Shown: in pieces, positions 25,505-30,109 of the stretch
Numbering within the stretch: position 1 is the first letter of the stretch
How the letters are laid out: every line of letters begins with the position of its first letter
Made by a program: the position numbers and the translations under genes
DNA from: a virus
Taxonomy: Duplodnaviria; Caudoviricetes
IMG/VR virus record: IMGVR_UViG_3300031555_004524
Coordinates: 184,150 to 248,149 of that record
Reading direction: 5' to 3' (one strand)
DNA: 64,000 nucleotides
Notes under the pieces: generated by a model
Database searches by the model: none
Told to the model about the DNA's origin: nothing
The model's input: only the letters and a program-made list of their open reading frames with translations

Positions 25505-27250
25505 TTAAAATATAGGAGCTGTTAAATGTTTTTCAGTTTCACCTAAAGTCAATGTTAAATTATATAAAACTTGCATAGCTTCATTTGAAGGTTTTCTCAT
25601 ATTTTTCCCATCAAGACCAATATAATTTTTTTTAGATTTAATATATTTATCTAATTCTTCATTAGCTTCTACTGTATATACACCTTTAATAGATACAGTA
25701 TCTCCATCATAGTCCCCTCCAATACCATTAAGCAATAAGTTGCAAATATTAAGCGTATCTATGAAATCCTGACTTGTATTTCTACCTACATCTTCTTGTC
25801 TAATTTTAGGATAATGTCGATACAATGTATTATTTACATATACAGGTTCAGTTTCCCTGATAGTATTTATTCTAAATTTAGATGGGAATTGATTATAGCT
25901 GGTATCTATAGGGAAACGAGTAATCAATATATGTTTATCTACTGCACATTCGCATGCAGCCATATAAAAAACGTCGCACCAAGTTAATTTTCTAGAAATC
26001 AATGGAGATGCATCAGTTACTCTTCCACTAGCCAGTTCCTCTGCAGTTACAGAATGACCTTTAAATGCAAGATATCCAACTTTTCCATCTAATAATGGAA
26101 CTTCAATAGGGGAAAATCTATTAGAGTATCCGTGAATAAATCTTTTTATTTCACCTTTTATTACATCTTCCGAATAAGAGATTAATGGGTCTTTTACTTC
26201 TGCATACATAATATCTCCTTTAGTGGTCATAACTTTATGCCTTATACCTCCACTAAATTCATTTTCAAAGAACCTCTTCACCCAATATATAATAAACGGT
26301 CTGAAGTTTACTATTGCAGATGCTAATGGTAAAGCGCAATGTTCTATATCTACCATCATATCGTTCATAGTTTCAACTTTCAATTCAGGAGCAGATAATA
26401 CTAATCTAGTTCCATCATTTGCAGTTTTACTCATAACTGCATTTCGAATTAAACCTTTCTTTTTAGATAATCCTACACCATCACTCTCTCCACTTCCAGT
26501 TCCACATAATACATCATAAATTTGTACCAATGTGTCCTGTATACGCCCCTTTACAGAATTAGACATAGATAATCCGTAATCCTGAGTTTCTATTAAAGCT
26601 CTTACAGAAATGATTAAAGATGAATAATACTTATTCAATACTCCAACTCCAATGTTTCCTCCTCTATTTTGAACGTCTCTATAATATGGTGGAATTACTA
26701 TGAATTTATTCATAAATATAACTTTTTTATATTTTTCTATGAATTGAATTTTCTTATCACGTTTTCTAGAATCTGTTGATTTTATTTTTATTTTATCTAT
26801 ATTATCTTTTAAGAATTTTACTCCGTTTGATCCATTTGGATCTTCTACGAAATCACCATCTGGTCCAATAGAATAAGTTTTAGTGCCATGAACTATTTCT
26901 TTTATTCTACTATCCATTCTTCCCCATAATTTATATACTAGCGGATGCAAAAACCAATCATGCAGATCTATATATCCAAATATATTAGATCTTTCTTCTT
27001 TAGTGATTCCGAATATTTCATTAGATAACAATCCTTCTGGAGTAGGAACTCCATCTCTAATAAAGAATACTGGATCTGTTATTTCTTTTACATTATTTGC
27101 TTTAATAAATGCGTCTACATTAAGAGGTTGCATCTGAAAATGCTTATCAGCAACTGCTTCATACAATGCAAAATTTTCATTAATTTTTAATAATTCCGAA
27201 AGGGAATGTGTATCTATCCCTCTTTCATATGAATATGAAATCATAGTCAT
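25505..27250 (-). CDS. rpoC: Phage multisubunit RNA polymerase beta'-like subunit (N-terminal part, catalytic DxDGD)
   Basis: GLLSNEIFG, FGYIDL, VIPPYYRD, KKGLIR, LITRFP and GGDYDGD occur in beta' order. At 581 aa it is a split subunit, as in AR9/phiKZ-like phages. Confidence 0.9.
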   Translation of the reverse strand: MTMISYSYERGIDTHSLSELLKINENFALYEAVADKHFQMQPLNVDAFIKANNVKEITDPVFFIRDGVPTPEGLLSNEIFGITKEERSNIFGYIDLHDWFLHPLVYKLWGRMDSRIKEIVHGTKTYSIGPDGDFVEDPNGSNGVKFLKDNIDKIKIKSTDSRKRDKKIQFIEKYKKVIFMNKFIVIPPYYRDVQNRGGNIGVGVLNKYYSSLIISVRALIETQDYGLSMSNSVKGRIQDTLVQIYDVLCGTGSGESDGVGLSKKKGLIRNAVMSKTANDGTRLVLSAPELKVETMNDMMVDIEHCALPLASAIVNFRPFIIYWVKRFFENEFSGGIRHKVMTTKGDIMYAEVKDPLISYSEDVIKGEIKRFIHGYSNRFSPIEVPLLDGKVGYLAFKGHSVTAEELASGRVTDASPLISRKLTWCDVFYMAACECAVDKHILITRFPIDTSYNQFPSKFRINTIRETEPVYVNNTLYRHYPKIRQEDVGRNTSQDFIDTLNICNLLLNGIGGDYDGDTVSIKGVYTVEANEELDKYIKSKKNYIGLDGKNMRKPSNEAMQVLYNLTLTLGETEKHLTAPIF

Positions 27251-27328: not shown

Positions 27329-27622
27329 TTATAATAATTGAATAATTACTGCATTACCTTCAACTACTCCAGTAACAGTATAAAGAGTTCCGTATATCAT
27401 TAACTCTTTATTTGCAGCAATTCTATTCATTTCTTCAGCATCTGTTTTTGAATCAAATGTAATCCGAAATGAAATTGGTTGATCATTTGCCATAGAACTT
27501 TCAATAGATGTGCCATCATATGATCCAAATAGATCATACATAGCCATCAATTCATCAAAATGATCTTTAACCAATGTCACTGGATCATTACTTATTGATT
27601 CCGAGAAAGCCACTCTATCCAT
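27329..27622 (-). CDS. Small hypothetical protein in the baseplate operon
   Basis: 97 aa; AAGGAGG RBS. Confidence 0.7.
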   Translation of the reverse strand: MDRVAFSESISNDPVTLVKDHFDELMAMYDLFGSYDGTSIESSMANDQPISFRITFDSKTDAEEMNRIAANKELMIYGTLYTVTGVVEGNAVIIQLL

Positions 27623-27651: not shown

Positions 27652-27864
27652 CTATGATCCTTCCATTTGGTCTTGTAATTCTTCTGCCGCTTTATTTTTC
27701 TTGCCTTCTTCCGATCTTGATTCATTGAGGACTAAGGCATGTAGATAATGGAACATTCCAATTTCCATATCATATAACTCCATAAACGAGACTCGTCCTT
27801 TTAACCATCCAGCTACTAAACTGCAGTGATCTAGCCATTGGCCAGAGCAGCCAGATGATGACGT
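27652..27864 (-). CDS. 70-aa -1 frameshift extension of the gp26-like protein (gp51-like segment; not in ORF track)
   Basis: Open -1 frame beginning at the TTTTTTA slippery site: TSSSGCSGQWLDHCSLVAGWLKGRVSFMELYDMEIGMFHYLHALVLNESRSEEGKKNKAAEELQDQMEGS*. Confidence 0.7.
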   Translation of the reverse strand, partial: TSSSGCSGQWLDHCSLVAGWLKGRVSFMELYDMEIGMFHYLHALVLNESRSEEGKKNKAAEELQDQMEGS

Positions 27865-27870
27865 AAAAAA
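27806..27870 (-). promoter_or_regulatory. Programmed -1 ribosomal frameshift signal
   Basis: T TTT TTA heptamer (27870-27864), 6-nt spacer, and a 12-bp stem CATCTGGCTGCT/AGTAGCTGGATG (3 G-U pairs) enclosing an inner hairpin. Confidence 0.7.
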
Positions 27871-29705
27871 AGCAACTGTGCTGCTGAATATGTACTTTCT
27901 TCAATCTCTTTACCACATTTTGGACATGTAGTTTTAGGGAGAACAAATGTGATATCCTGTTCAGCTCCAGTTAATTTTTCTACATATAATCTGATAATCT
28001 GATACTGGTCAGATGTAAGTTCTTTCATTACTTTAGATAATACAATGATCTTAGCTTTTAATGATTTAGCTGGATCATTTGGATACTGTTTTACATTTAA
28101 TGGTCTAAGTGCTTCTAACTGAGGATCAATAAAGAATACTTTATCGATACAGGTAGCAAATGTAATTGTATCTGCATACTTAGCAATAAATTCATCATCT
28201 AAATATGCTGGTGTAAATACTGCATCATAAATTGTTGGCTCTTTAAATGCAAAAGCATAACTATCAGATACAGGAATTACATCAAGTTTCATTTTTCTAT
28301 TTGATGGTGTACTTGGCTGATTATAAGCTTTATCGAATCTAGCTTTAACATTATCATCTTTAAACTTAACCATGTCCATGAAAGGTACACTGTTAGTTAA
28401 GAATGAATTAGCACACTTATCGTCAGGGCAGTCATATGGTAAGAAGTTTTCTCCTTCAAATGATGCTCTATAAATAGCAGCATATAAATGATCTACATCT
28501 GCAACTGATACAGTTTTAGCCCAAGCATCTACAGTCTCAGGTTTATATTCATCGATAATATGACTATGGATTAAACCATACTGTTCTTTTGCTGCTCTTA
28601 ATTTATTTCTTCCTGGATCTTTTAACAGATTAGCAACTTCAGATCCTTTGAATGCTTTCATAGTAATACTTCTTCCTGTAGCTGGTAATGCCCAATCTGC
28701 AGTTTTAACATTGAAAGCTGTCGCTGCTCTATTAACACTTTCTGTTACATTAATAGGTTTATCAATGATTTTAAAAGATGCTAAATTTAAACCTTTTGTG
28801 ATAGGTTTGATTTTTGACTGTACTTCTCGTTTAAGATTCTCTAAACGTCTTTTCTGCACAGAGTCTCCTTTTTCAACAATATTGTCATCATCTAATGCTT
28901 TTAAATCTGCATCTTCATCTCTATCCATTAGTTCAGATACATCATCTGGAATAGGAGTCATTACATCGGATTTATTTACAACTTCTTCTTCTTTTGTGAT
29001 TGTAAAAGATGGAGTGACTGGTTCATTGTCAATTTCATCTTCTTCAATGTAATCATATTCTTCCTCTTCAGGAATTGCATCCTGAATCATCTGATCTAAT
29101 TCTTCTTCTGGGTCTATATCATCATTTTCATATTCAATATCGTCAGATTCATACTCTCCATATTCTTCTTCTTCAGAATCTGAATAATGTAATTCTGTTG
29201 TATCATAAGAATCAGCATATTCTTCTTCGATATCTTCTTCTACTGGATCATATTCATATTGTGTTTTCATTTCTTGTTCCCTTTCGTATGCTGCTCTATT
29301 TGCAGCTTCTTGATCTCTAATTGCTTTAGATTTTCCAGGTTTAGGAGGATTTTCCATCATTGCTAATGGATCAAATCCAATAGCATCTACATAATCCTCA
29401 TACTCAACCTTTCCATCTAATTGTTCTTCTAATTCATGCATTGCGATAGCCTCTCCCATTTTCTGCTGGATAATACCATCTGCTTCAGTAAGCACTTTTG
29501 TTTCCAGAGTCTGTTTAGCTGGATCTACTTTATCTAATTCTCTCTGAGAAGGAATATTGAATTCTTTTGCAGGATCAATACTTCTTTTTGTTCCCCCGCT
29601 AGGATGTTTTACCTGTTTTGCACCATTTGGTCGTCTAGGTGGTAAATTTGGATTTGGTAAAGTTTCGCTAGGGATATCTCTCAAATCGTCAAGTGTGATA
29701 CTCAT
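27831..29705 (-). CDS. Baseplate hub assembly / tail chaperone, T4 gp26-like C-terminal domain with long acidic N-terminal extension
   Basis: CPDDKC...CPKCG Zn-ribbon pair ending ...LLFL; adjacent to a gp25-like gene. Confidence 0.6.
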   Translation of the reverse strand: MSITLDDLRDIPSETLPNPNLPPRRPNGAKQVKHPSGGTKRSIDPAKEFNIPSQRELDKVDPAKQTLETKVLTEADGIIQQKMGEAIAMHELEEQLDGKVEYEDYVDAIGFDPLAMMENPPKPGKSKAIRDQEAANRAAYEREQEMKTQYEYDPVEEDIEEEYADSYDTTELHYSDSEEEEYGEYESDDIEYENDDIDPEEELDQMIQDAIPEEEEYDYIEEDEIDNEPVTPSFTITKEEEVVNKSDVMTPIPDDVSELMDRDEDADLKALDDDNIVEKGDSVQKRRLENLKREVQSKIKPITKGLNLASFKIIDKPINVTESVNRAATAFNVKTADWALPATGRSITMKAFKGSEVANLLKDPGRNKLRAAKEQYGLIHSHIIDEYKPETVDAWAKTVSVADVDHLYAAIYRASFEGENFLPYDCPDDKCANSFLTNSVPFMDMVKFKDDNVKARFDKAYNQPSTPSNRKMKLDVIPVSDSYAFAFKEPTIYDAVFTPAYLDDEFIAKYADTITFATCIDKVFFIDPQLEALRPLNVKQYPNDPAKSLKAKIIVLSKVMKELTSDQYQIIRLYVEKLTGAEQDITFVLPKTTCPKCGKEIEESTYSAAQLLFLRHHLAALANG

Positions 29706-29725: not shown

Positions 29726-30109
29726 TTATGATAGACTTATCAAATCTACAAAATTATTTTCTTGTTTTTCTGTTTCATATTTATATAATGTACCGTTGAT
29801 TGTGATGTTTAATGATAATTTTTTATCATCTCCCAATGCCACTTCAACTCTACAACCAGCGAATTCTGGTAGATATTGTTCTATTTGATTTTTGATATCA
29901 TTTCTCAGTTTATCTAAATCATCTTCACTCATAGCTCTATATCTAGATACTAAACCTATACCCATTTGAGGTCTAGCCGCATAAGTTCCAGGTTCTAATA
30001 ATATAAGATGTACTAATAGTTGAGAAATAGCATCTTTTCCAGTTAATACTTTAGGATTATTAAATTCATCTGTTGTTAGTAAATATTCTTTAGGTGTTTC
30101 GGTAGCCAA
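29726..30109 (-). CDS. Baseplate wedge / sheath initiator, gp25-like
   Basis: AISQLLVHLILLEPGTYAARPQMGIGL...IKNQIEQYLPE matches GPW/gp25 (LL.T.PGER...P.FG..L...I..YEP). Confidence 0.7.
   Translation of the reverse strand: MATETPKEYLLTTDEFNNPKVLTGKDAISQLLVHLILLEPGTYAARPQMGIGLVSRYRAMSEDDLDKLRNDIKNQIEQYLPEFAGCRVEVALGDDKKLSLNITINGTLYKYETEKQENNFVDLISLS

What the first reader, a model, noticed from the sequence alone, without database searches (positions are those of the whole stretch)
27652..27870. Hidden programmed -1 frameshift fusing a gp26-like baseplate chaperone to an unannotated gp51-like tail
Seen in sequence (minus strand): near its end the 624-aa gene reads CTT TTT TTA CGT, containing the slippery heptamer U UUU UUA. 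After a 6-nt spacer comes a locally GC-rich, fully pairable 12-bp stem (CAUCUGGCUGCU 27857-27846 with AGUAGCUGGAUG 27817-27806, 3 G-U pairs). That stem encloses an inner hairpin containing the 0-frame UAG stop. The -1 frame is open for exactly 70 codons (...VSFMELYDMEIGMFHYLHALVLNESRSEE...) and fills the apparent intergenic gap without an RBS of its own. Established: UUUUUUA plus a downstream stem is a canonical -1 signal, and lambda G/GT-type tail chaperones use such frameshifts. Inference: the extension resembles the short gp51-type S..EL..M...L...EE peptides of T4-like phages. This jumbo phage would then make short and long forms of a baseplate/tail chaperone, next to a gp25-like gene.
Basis: partly seen in the sequence, partly recalled or inferred. 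Interest (0 to 1): 0.82.

Follow-up and report, generated by a model that had tools for sequence, protein, structure and literature searches.

The report
Conserved -1 frameshift in baseplate-hub gene
A run of T's near the end of a phage baseplate-hub assembly gene (a relative of T4 gene 26) very probably makes some ribosomes slip back one base and add a small helical domain, and the same unannotated signal is present in phiKZ, AR9 and every other cultured giant phage examined.

Summary
The in-phase heptamer T TTT TTA (27870-27864, minus strand), a stable hairpin after it (z -3.3) and a -1 frame open for 70 codons are all present. Of 30 such heptamers in this 248-kb phage genome, only this one is followed by a long open -1 frame.

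The frameshift reading is strongly supported by comparison.
- In 34 related metagenomic loci (23 lineages, 27-55% protein identity) the -1 frame stays open from the same Phe codon for 70-114 codons.
- It encodes a conserved domain, including the stretch before any start codon. Nine lineages have no start codon at all.
- Synonymous sites in the overlap are constrained as dual coding predicts.
- The T-run (T5-T8) is kept in 22 of 23 lineages.
- The one lineage that lost the T-run has a TAATG restart instead.
- The same arrangement is in 15 of 15 cultured jumbo phages checked, including phiKZ gp77/076.4, AR9 g231/g230, SPN3US and 201phi2-1. There the small ORF is annotated separately.

The gene is a T4 gp26-family hub protein (Pfam PF12322). 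The "gp51-like" label for the extension is not supported, and the stem is not conserved.

No paper describing this was found. No experiment has been done.

The parts
29726..30109 (-). gp25-like baseplate wedge gene, immediately upstream of the hub gene
   Evidence: Pfam GPW_gp25 1.8e-6, phrog_43. The same order is found in AR9: g232 'base plate wedge subunit' then g231.
27831..29705 (-). 624-aa gene, 0-frame product (short form). It has an acidic low-complexity N-terminal half and a conserved C-terminal domain with two Cys pairs.
   Evidence: The 0-frame tail after the slip site is conserved in 22 homologues, with F613, R615 and L618 invariant.
27882..28691 (-). T4 gp26-family (Pfam PF12322 T4_baseplate) domain, residues 339-608
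   Evidence: 30.9-33 bits against a cut-off of 24.5, E 1.8e-8 / 6.2e-8. AF2 model pLDDT 89. BFVD hits to 'baseplate hub assembly protein, T4-like'. hhalign to the phiKZ gp77 family: probability 96%, E 3.9e-9.
27864..27870 (-). Slippery heptamer T TTT TTA, part of a T7 run at the invariant Phe613 codon. This is the proposed -1 shift site.
   Evidence: The T-run is kept in 22 of 23 lineages and in 15 of 15 cultured phages.
27831..27870 (-). Dual-coding overlap: the last 13 codons of the 0 frame and the first codons of the -1 frame (a Ser/Gly-rich linker)
   Evidence: Synonymous-site constraints. The upstream -1 stop lies only 1-21 codons before the site in relatives.
27794..27863 (-). Hairpin after the heptamer, enclosing the 0-frame UAG. 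A possible lineage-specific stimulator.
   Evidence: z -3.29. No conserved counterpart in relatives.
27652..27864 (-). -1 frame extension: 70 codons plus TAG. It encodes a small four-helix domain and the long form would be about 684 aa.
   Evidence: AF2 pLDDT 83.8. Conserved in 23 lineages. Matches the AR9 -1 ORF at E 7.5e-6 and the -1 ORFs of cultured phiKZ-like phages at E 2e-4.
27781..27783 (-). Internal ATG of the 43-aa ORF a gene caller would pick. It lies inside the conserved domain and is not conserved (Thr in L011).

Best explanation
The 624-aa gene encodes a T4 gp26-family baseplate-hub assembly protein. At the T-run covering the invariant Phe613 codon, a fraction of ribosomes slip back one base. 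In this window that is tandem slippage on U UUU UUA. In relatives with only U UUU it would be slippage of tRNA-Phe alone.

Slipped ribosomes skip the last 10-11 residues of the C-terminal helix. They read instead a Ser/Gly-rich linker and a small helical domain of about 55 aa, giving a long form of about 684 aa beside the 624-aa short form.

Shown: the sequence features, and their conservation and dual-coding constraints across very distant phages.

Inferred: that the shift is ribosomal, its efficiency, and the role of the added domain. The likely role is a docking or partner-binding module supplied in a fixed ratio to the hub-assembly protein, by analogy with lambda G/GT. In a few lineages the domain is apparently supplied as a separate small protein by stop-start coupling.
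For: (1). In all 34 related loci that include the gene's 3' end, the -1 frame is open from the equivalent Phe codon for 70-114 codons. One locus is cut by its contig end while still open. The +1 frame closes after 3-45 codons.

(2). The -1 peptide aligns without gaps for 47 residues from the shift site in 23 lineages. It is conserved between the 0-frame stop and the first ATG.

(3). 9 of 23 lineages have no ATG/GTG/TTG between the site and the conserved motif, and L008 has no near-cognate codon either. A -1 stop lies 1-3 codons upstream of the site in L002, L031 and L035, so entry must occur within the last ~14-17 codons.

(4). Substitutions in the 24 codons after the 0-frame stop fall 118/68/153 on -1-frame codon positions 1/2/3.

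(5). Resampling synonymous codons gives P(open overlap) of 0.11-0.74 per lineage (product about 1e-12, not corrected for phylogeny). The site Phe is TTT 22:1, while other conserved Phe columns are about 1:1. The next Arg is CGN in 22 of 23 against 24% usage. The next conserved Leu is YTG in 20 of 23 against about 18% usage.

(6). The only lineage without the T-run (L003/L004) has a TAATG stop-start. T>=6 lineages rarely have a start near the stop (1 of 6) and T<6 lineages often do (13 of 17; Fisher p = 0.018).

(7). Only 1 of 30 heptamers in the genome has a long open -1 frame.

(8). 15 of 15 cultured jumbo phages (locus GC measured at 46-53% in six of them) have an in-phase T-run at the same motif: U_UUU_UUN in 12 read directly, T5 in AR9, and in PCH45 and Ea277G the run lies farther upstream and was not printed. 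The -1 frame is open 74-158 codons past the stop and the -1 products are homologous. A genome-wide scan returns exactly this gene in phiKZ and in Special G.
Against: - There is no experimental evidence: no junction peptide, reporter assay or ribosome profile.
- No downstream stimulatory structure is conserved. The window's hairpin may be incidental.
- In most of the window's own clade the run is only T5 (for example GTT TTT ACA). That is not a canonical heptamer and would be expected to shift weakly.
- 14 of 23 lineages have an ATG/GTG close to the 0-frame stop that could restart translation. There the domain may be made mainly as a separate protein.
- No homologue with the extension fused in frame was found (weak evidence).
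- The phiKZ homologue gp77 does not appear in the main text of the phiKZ virion atlas, which identifies 40 virion proteins (PMC13250141; supplementary tables not checked). The long form cannot be checked against solved structures.
Confidence: 0.72

Rival explanations
1. Transcriptional slippage. The phage or host RNA polymerase adds one extra U while copying the T-run. A fraction of mRNAs then carry the two frames fused, and ribosomes translate them normally.
For: The runs are T7-T8 in the window and in 10 of the cultured phages read. That is a length at which polymerase stuttering is known in other systems (own knowledge). No conserved RNA stimulator was found. These phages encode their own unusual RNA polymerases.
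Against: Many lineages with an equally well kept open -1 frame and no start codon have only T5 or T6 (L005, L006, L008, L019, L024, L035, AR9). That is too short for known stuttering. The run is always in the X XXY YYZ phase, although the Phe-Phe/Leu motif partly forces this.
Confidence: 0.13
2. There is no fusion. The downstream frame is a separate small gene, translated by termination-reinitiation or from a non-canonical start. The -1 phase would be a relic of an ancestral TAATG/ATGA stop-start overlap.
For: L003/L004, L028 and L033 have TAATG and L032 has ATGA at the 0-frame stop. 14 of 23 lineages have ATG/GTG within a few codons of it. 201phi2-1 gp135 is annotated with a 4-nt overlap. Annotators of the phiKZ, AR9 and Special G records all called separate small ORFs.
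Against: 9 of 23 lineages, and most cultured phages, have no start codon for tens of codons after the stop, yet that stretch is conserved as protein. The -1 frame is also kept open and constrained upstream of the stop, back to the T-run. The T-run itself is conserved against codon preference. In PCH45 and Ea277G the -1 ORF starts 48-58 codons before the stop.
Confidence: 0.08
3. Chance or artefact. The T-run is only codon usage for a conserved Leu-Phe-Leu in an AT-rich genome, or a homopolymer sequencing error, and the open frame is accidental.
For: The heptamer by itself is common: 30 in this genome. The 0-frame Leu-Phe motif is conserved as protein.
Against: The same phase and open frame are seen in 34 independent metagenomic assemblies and 15 cultured genomes (locus GC 46-53% in the six measured). 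Both frames are conserved as protein.
Confidence: 0.02

Closest known systems
Lambda G/GT-type tail assembly chaperone frameshift (and its many phage analogues)
   Same: A -1 shift at a slippery heptamer near the 3' end of a morphogenesis gene gives a short and a C-terminally extended form in a fixed ratio. The arrangement is conserved by position rather than by sequence.
   Different: This is a different gene family (gp26-like hub protein, not the chaperone placed before the tape-measure gene) and a different genomic position (after the gp25-like wedge gene). The added domain is unrelated. No experimental proof exists here.
T7 gene 10A/10B capsid frameshift (own knowledge: -1 shift at G GUU UUC)
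   Same: tRNA-Phe slips on a U-run preceded by a GUU codon, close to the end of the gene. The T5 relatives read G GTT TTT, almost the same site.
   Different: T7 10B adds a short tail to the capsid protein. Here a folded domain is added to a hub-assembly protein.
T4 gene 26 / 26' (baseplate hub subunit with a second product)
   Same: Same protein family (PF12322). T4 also makes two products from the gene, gp26 and gp26', as annotated in AF158101. In T4 the next gene also starts at a TAATG in the -1 phase.
   Different: T4's second product comes from internal in-frame initiation, not from a frameshift. T4 gp26 is 208 aa with no N-terminal acidic half. The gene after it is gene 25, not a small helical domain. 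T4 has no T-run at the equivalent place.
phiKZ gp77 + PHIKZ076.4, AR9 g231 + g230, Special G gp271 + gp270, 201phi2-1 gp136 + gp135, SPN3US gp39 + gp40
   Same: Homologous genes (hhalign 96%, E 3.9e-9; AR9 profile hit E 6e-18). They share the same T-run at the same motif, the same open -1 frame and a homologous C-terminal module.
   Different: In the phiKZ-like phages the -1 extension is 150-180 aa and the run is T6-T8. In the window's clade and in AR9 it is 70-85 aa. All are annotated as two separate hypothetical proteins.

Membership tests
Programmed -1 ribosomal frameshift site | Slippery heptamer X XXY YYZ in the 0-frame phase | tested here: met
   T TTT TTA at 27870-27864. U_UUU_UUN was read directly in 12 of 15 cultured phages. 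It is not met in most relatives of the window's own clade or in AR9, which have only U UUU N.
Programmed -1 ribosomal frameshift site | Downstream stimulatory RNA structure (or upstream SD-like element) at the right spacing | tested here: inconclusive
   The window has a stable hairpin after a 0-6 nt spacer (z -3.29). RNAalifold finds no shared structure in 22 relatives. Eight cultured phages have z between +0.7 and -2.1.
Programmed -1 ribosomal frameshift site | -1 ORF that continues from the site, lacks its own start and is conserved as protein in relatives | tested here: met
Programmed -1 ribosomal frameshift site | Trans-frame protein demonstrated (mass spectrometry, Western blot, reporter, ribosome profiling) | not testable with these tools
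   No experiment was possible. No paper reporting it was found.
T4 gp26 baseplate hub family (Pfam PF12322 T4_baseplate) | Match to the family profile above the curated cut-off over most of its length | tested here: met
   33.0 bits against 24.5, E 6.2e-8, profile positions 8-213 of 219. The six-frame search gave 30.9 bits. T4 gp26 itself scores 215.6 bits. The scan of the full-length protein missed it.
T4 gp26 baseplate hub family (Pfam PF12322 T4_baseplate) | Baseplate gene neighbourhood | tested here: met
   A gp25-like gene lies directly upstream and tail-fibre-like genes are nearby.
T4 gp26 baseplate hub family (Pfam PF12322 T4_baseplate) | Required for hub assembly | not testable with these tools
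   Function was not assayed.
T4 gp51 (baseplate hub assembly catalyst), for the extension | Sequence or profile similarity to gp51 | tested here: not met
   hhalign of the extension profile against T4 gp51: probability 0.17%. No Pfam hit. No BFVD fold hit with E below 0.1 and none to gp51.
Lambda G/GT-type tail assembly chaperone | Homology to chaperone families and a position just upstream of the tape-measure gene | tested here: not met
   No PHROG or Pfam chaperone hit. The neighbours are a gp25-like gene and an RNA polymerase subunit, not a tape measure. The resemblance is in mechanism only.
phiKZ gp77 / AR9 g231 family of jumbo phages | Profile-level homology, colinear Cys pairs and shared gene order | tested here: met
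   hhalign probability 96%, E 3.9e-9. AR9 hit E 6.3e-18. Foldseek to the Special G protein E 2.7e-8. Gene order.

The most novel reading that the evidence does not exclude
An ancient recoding signal is conserved in the gp26-like hub-assembly gene of essentially all jumbo phages that encode their own RNA polymerase (phiKZ-like/Chimalliviridae, AR9/PBS1-like and uncultured gut and rumen clades). It has been missed in more than 200 GenBank genomes. The frameshift-made long form, not the annotated small ORF, would be the functional product needed for baseplate hub assembly.
Probability: 0.55. Interest if true: 0.8.

Novelty: new member of a known kind. Interest (0 to 1): 0.72.

Why it matters
Programmed frameshifts in phage tail-chaperone genes are textbook. 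None is known, as far as the searchable literature shows, in the baseplate-hub gene.

If real, it would have four consequences.
- It corrects the annotation of model phages (phiKZ gp77/076.4, AR9 g231/g230, SPN3US gp39/gp40, 201phi2-1 gp136/gp135) and of about 200 other genomes.
- It links phiKZ gp77 to T4 gp26, whose role in hub assembly is still unclear.
- It gives a second, very old example of ratio-setting by recoding in tail morphogenesis.
- It offers a natural series (T8 to T5 to none plus TAATG) showing how a frameshift fusion can turn into a separate gene.

It can be tested directly in tractable phage-host pairs.

Tried and rejected
Homologue DNA came from the search for related loci instead.
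- Megablast and tblastn of the window gene against GenBank phages found nothing, and neither did a single-sequence scan of viral contigs.
- The Pfam/PHROG scan of the full-length protein gave no family. Only the C-terminal domain alone hit PF12322.
- A profile search of PDB sequences and a Foldseek search of PDB gave no meaningful match.
- A conserved stimulatory stem was looked for and not found.
- gp51 similarity was rejected.
- HMM searches of phiKZ and Special G with A3, PF12322 and PF04965 found nothing. The link needed fold search and profile-profile comparison. phiKZ gp78 has no gp25 Pfam hit, so I do not call it gp25-like.
- No in-frame fused long homologue of the extension was found.
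- The rare CGN Arg codon as a 'hungry codon' stimulator was considered. It is better explained by the -1 frame needing a small residue (NCG) there.

Full report
OBSERVATION. On the minus strand a 624-aa ORF runs from 29705 to the TAG at 27833-27831. Its 0-frame codons CTT TTT TTA (27872-27864) contain the in-phase heptamer T TTT TTA, 12 codons before the stop. From the A of that heptamer the -1 frame is open for 70 codons, ending at TAG 27654-27652. The RNA 27872-27790 folds at -27.8 kcal/mol, z = -3.29, and none of 200 shuffles folds as well. In the phage's whole 248-kb genome there are 30 in-phase T_TTT_TTN heptamers in 181 ORFs of at least 150 codons. The -1 frame behind them is open for a median of 5 codons, and only this one exceeds 40. 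The heptamer alone means nothing here, but the combination is unique in the genome.

RELATIVES OF THE WINDOW'S OWN CLADE. The window lies in an IMG/VR phage record of about 29% GC. It has no close relative in GenBank phages. A protein search found 35 homologues at 34-51% identity, all from metagenomes. 34 of them include the 3' end and they form 23 lineages.
- In every one the -1 frame is open from the equivalent Phe codon for 70-114 codons. One locus is cut by the contig end while still open. The +1 frame closes after 3-45 codons.
- The -1 translations align without a gap for 47 residues from the shift site. They are conserved in the stretch between the 0-frame stop and the first ATG.
- The previous -1 stop lies only 1-21 codons upstream, and 1-3 codons in L002, L031 and L035. 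Entry into the -1 frame must therefore happen within the last ~14-17 codons of the gene.
- 9 of 23 lineages, the window among them, have no ATG, GTG or TTG between the site and the conserved Lys-Gly-Arg motif. One (L008) has no near-cognate codon either.
- Among close pairs, differences in the 24 codons after the 0-frame stop fall 118/68/153 on -1-frame positions 1/2/3, the pattern of a coding frame.

DUAL CODING AND THE T-RUN.
- Resampling synonymous codons of each lineage's 0-frame tail gives a probability of 0.11-0.74 that the overlap stays open in -1. The product is about 1e-12, which overstates significance because lineages are related.
- A phylogeny-robust control is the behaviour of other conserved columns of the same gene. 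Conserved Phe columns elsewhere are TTT:TTC 12:9, 14:8, 8:11 and 6:13. At the site the ratio is 22:1.
- The invariant Arg two codons later is CGN in 22 of 23 lineages, although AGA makes up 70% of Arg codons.
- The invariant Leu is CTG or TTG in 20 of 23, against about 18% usage. These choices are what the -1 frame needs: a small residue, then Ser, then Gly.
- The codon before Phe always ends in TT, so the run is at least T5 in 22 of 23 lineages: T7 in four, T6 in two, T5 in sixteen.
- The single lineage that lost the run (L003/L004, TTG TTC AGC) has an ATG overlapping the stop as TAATG.
- Lineages with T>=6 rarely have a start codon near the stop (1 of 6). Those with T<6 usually do (13 of 17; Fisher p = 0.018, not corrected for phylogeny).

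WHAT THE GENE IS. The C-terminal domain alone matches Pfam PF12322 (T4_baseplate) at 33 bits, above the cut-off of 24.5, with E 6.2e-8 over profile positions 8-213 of 219. T4 gp26 itself scores 215.6 bits on the same model. The scan of the full-length protein missed this. The AF2 model of residues 291-624 is confident (pLDDT 89.3). Its best BFVD matches are gut-phage proteins, then 'baseplate hub assembly protein, T4-like' entries and proteins of about 500 aa from jumbo phages. No solved structure matches. The last helix of the model spans residues 608-623, so the shift at Phe613 exchanges most of that helix. Directly upstream lies a gp25-like wedge gene. Tail-fibre-like genes and a phage RNA polymerase beta subunit are nearby.

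WHAT THE EXTENSION IS. An AF2 model built from the 22 -1-frame peptides is confident (pLDDT 83.8) and has four helices. It has no Pfam family, no significant BFVD match and no similarity to T4 gp51 (hhalign probability 0.17%). gp51 is in any case a 249-aa protein. The 'gp51-like' idea is therefore rejected. The weak BFVD hits were nevertheless small proteins from the same phages whose ~500-aa proteins matched the hub domain. That led to the next step.

CULTURED JUMBO PHAGES. In Erwinia phage Special G the 539-aa fold homologue (gp271) reads GTT TTT TTT at a Val-Phe-Phe motif 18 codons before its stop. The -1 frame is open for 136 further codons. That frame contains a 152-nt 'gap' and the annotated 86-aa gp270, which was called from a GTG. 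A scan was run for ORFs of at least 300 codons with a run of at least T5 in the last 25 codons and a -1 frame open at least 30 codons past the stop. It returns exactly one gene in Special G and one in phiKZ. The phiKZ gene is gp77, with ACT TTT TTT ACT and 152 open codons that cover PHIKZ076.4.

tblastn with gp77 finds 226 phage records. In 201phi2-1, Xoo-sp14, RSF1, Bacillus AgentSmith, SPN3US, Halocynthia JM-2012, Eowyn, Vibrio Yong XC32, Aeromonas D3, Phobos, PCH45 and Ea277G the -1 frame is open 112-158 codons past the stop. Its product begins Phe-Phe at the shift site, and the +1 frame is closed. An in-phase U_UUU_UUN heptamer was read directly in ten of these twelve. In PCH45 and Ea277G the shift site lies 48-58 codons before the stop, outside the stretch whose T-runs were listed. 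The -1 products are mutually homologous along their length, including parts upstream of the annotated starts.

Profile-profile comparison links the window's family to this gp77 family (probability 96%, E 3.9e-9, 257 columns, both Cys pairs colinear). It also links the window's extension to the C-terminal module of theirs (E 2e-4). AR9 is closer still. The window-family profile hits g231 at E 6.3e-18. The gene order is the same: wedge gene, g231, then the small ORF g230 called from a TTG. The site is CTT TTT CAT, and a -1 frame open 74 codons past the stop begins with a Ser/Gly-rich linker. That frame matches the window's extension profile at E 7.5e-6. In total, 15 of 15 cultured phages show the arrangement.

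MECHANISM AND RIVALS. The best reading is -1 ribosomal slippage of tRNA-Phe on the U-run: tandem slippage where the heptamer is canonical, as in the window, and single-tRNA slippage where only U UUU remains. The G GTT TTT sites resemble the T7 gene 10 site (own knowledge).
- No downstream structure is conserved, so the window's hairpin is at most a lineage-specific enhancer.
- Transcriptional slippage is a real alternative for T7-T8 runs. It does not explain the T5 and T6 lineages that lack any start codon.
- Separate initiation or reinitiation is plausible as an additional or replacing route where an ATG sits at the stop. It cannot explain the conservation upstream of any start, nor the constraints inside the overlap.
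- The function of the added domain is unknown. By analogy with G/GT I infer a partner-binding module delivered in a fixed ratio.
- gp77 does not occur in the main text of the phiKZ virion atlas, which identifies 40 virion proteins (PMC13250141; supplementary tables not checked). That would fit an assembly factor, as is thought for T4 gp26 (own knowledge).

LITERATURE. Seven full-text searches and five papers read by term turned up no description of a frameshift in gp77, g231 or their relatives. The library lacks most subscription journals, so prior description cannot be excluded.

LIMITS. Everything here is comparative and computational. Efficiency, the exact junction residue (Leu or Phe), and whether the shift is ribosomal or transcriptional are all untested. 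The probability products are inflated by shared ancestry. The column controls, the genome-wide scans and the 15 of 15 cultured phages are the more robust arguments.

Noticed in passing
L075:3404-5005 (phiKZ gp77) and window 27882-28691: phiKZ gp77 and its ~200 relatives have no Pfam hit of their own. They are linked through the window's family to T4 gp26 (PF12322). This suggests the unannotated gp77 family is the jumbo-phage counterpart of the T4 hub protein gp26.
   Followed up: partly
L003:4027-4247, L004, also L028, L032, L033: Some lineages have a TAATG or ATGA stop-start overlap at the end of the hub gene. L003/L004 have also lost the T-run. This looks like a natural transition from a frameshift fusion to a separately translated small protein.
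   Followed up: partly
window 28800-29400 (residues ~100-300 of the 624-aa protein): The N-terminal half is acidic, of low complexity and poorly conserved in length. It appears to have masked the PF12322 match in the full-length Pfam scan.
   Followed up: no
window 27329-27622 (-) and L090:1997-2329 (AR9 g229): An ORF of about 100 aa with no family hit follows the extension, both here (97 aa) and in AR9 (110 aa). The conserved order suggests it belongs to the same module. Homology was not tested.
   Followed up: no
window 25505-27250 (-): A 581-aa phage RNA polymerase beta-subunit piece (phrog_2986, 1e-79) lies just downstream. An RNA polymerase beta gene also sits near the gp77-type gene in Special G, SPN3US and Phobos.
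   Followed up: no
L039:5803-5810 (T4 genes 26/25): In T4, gene 25 starts at a TAATG overlapping the gene 26 stop, which is the same -1 phase relation as in this family. The downstream gene is the wedge protein, not a small helical domain, and there is no T-run.
   Followed up: partly
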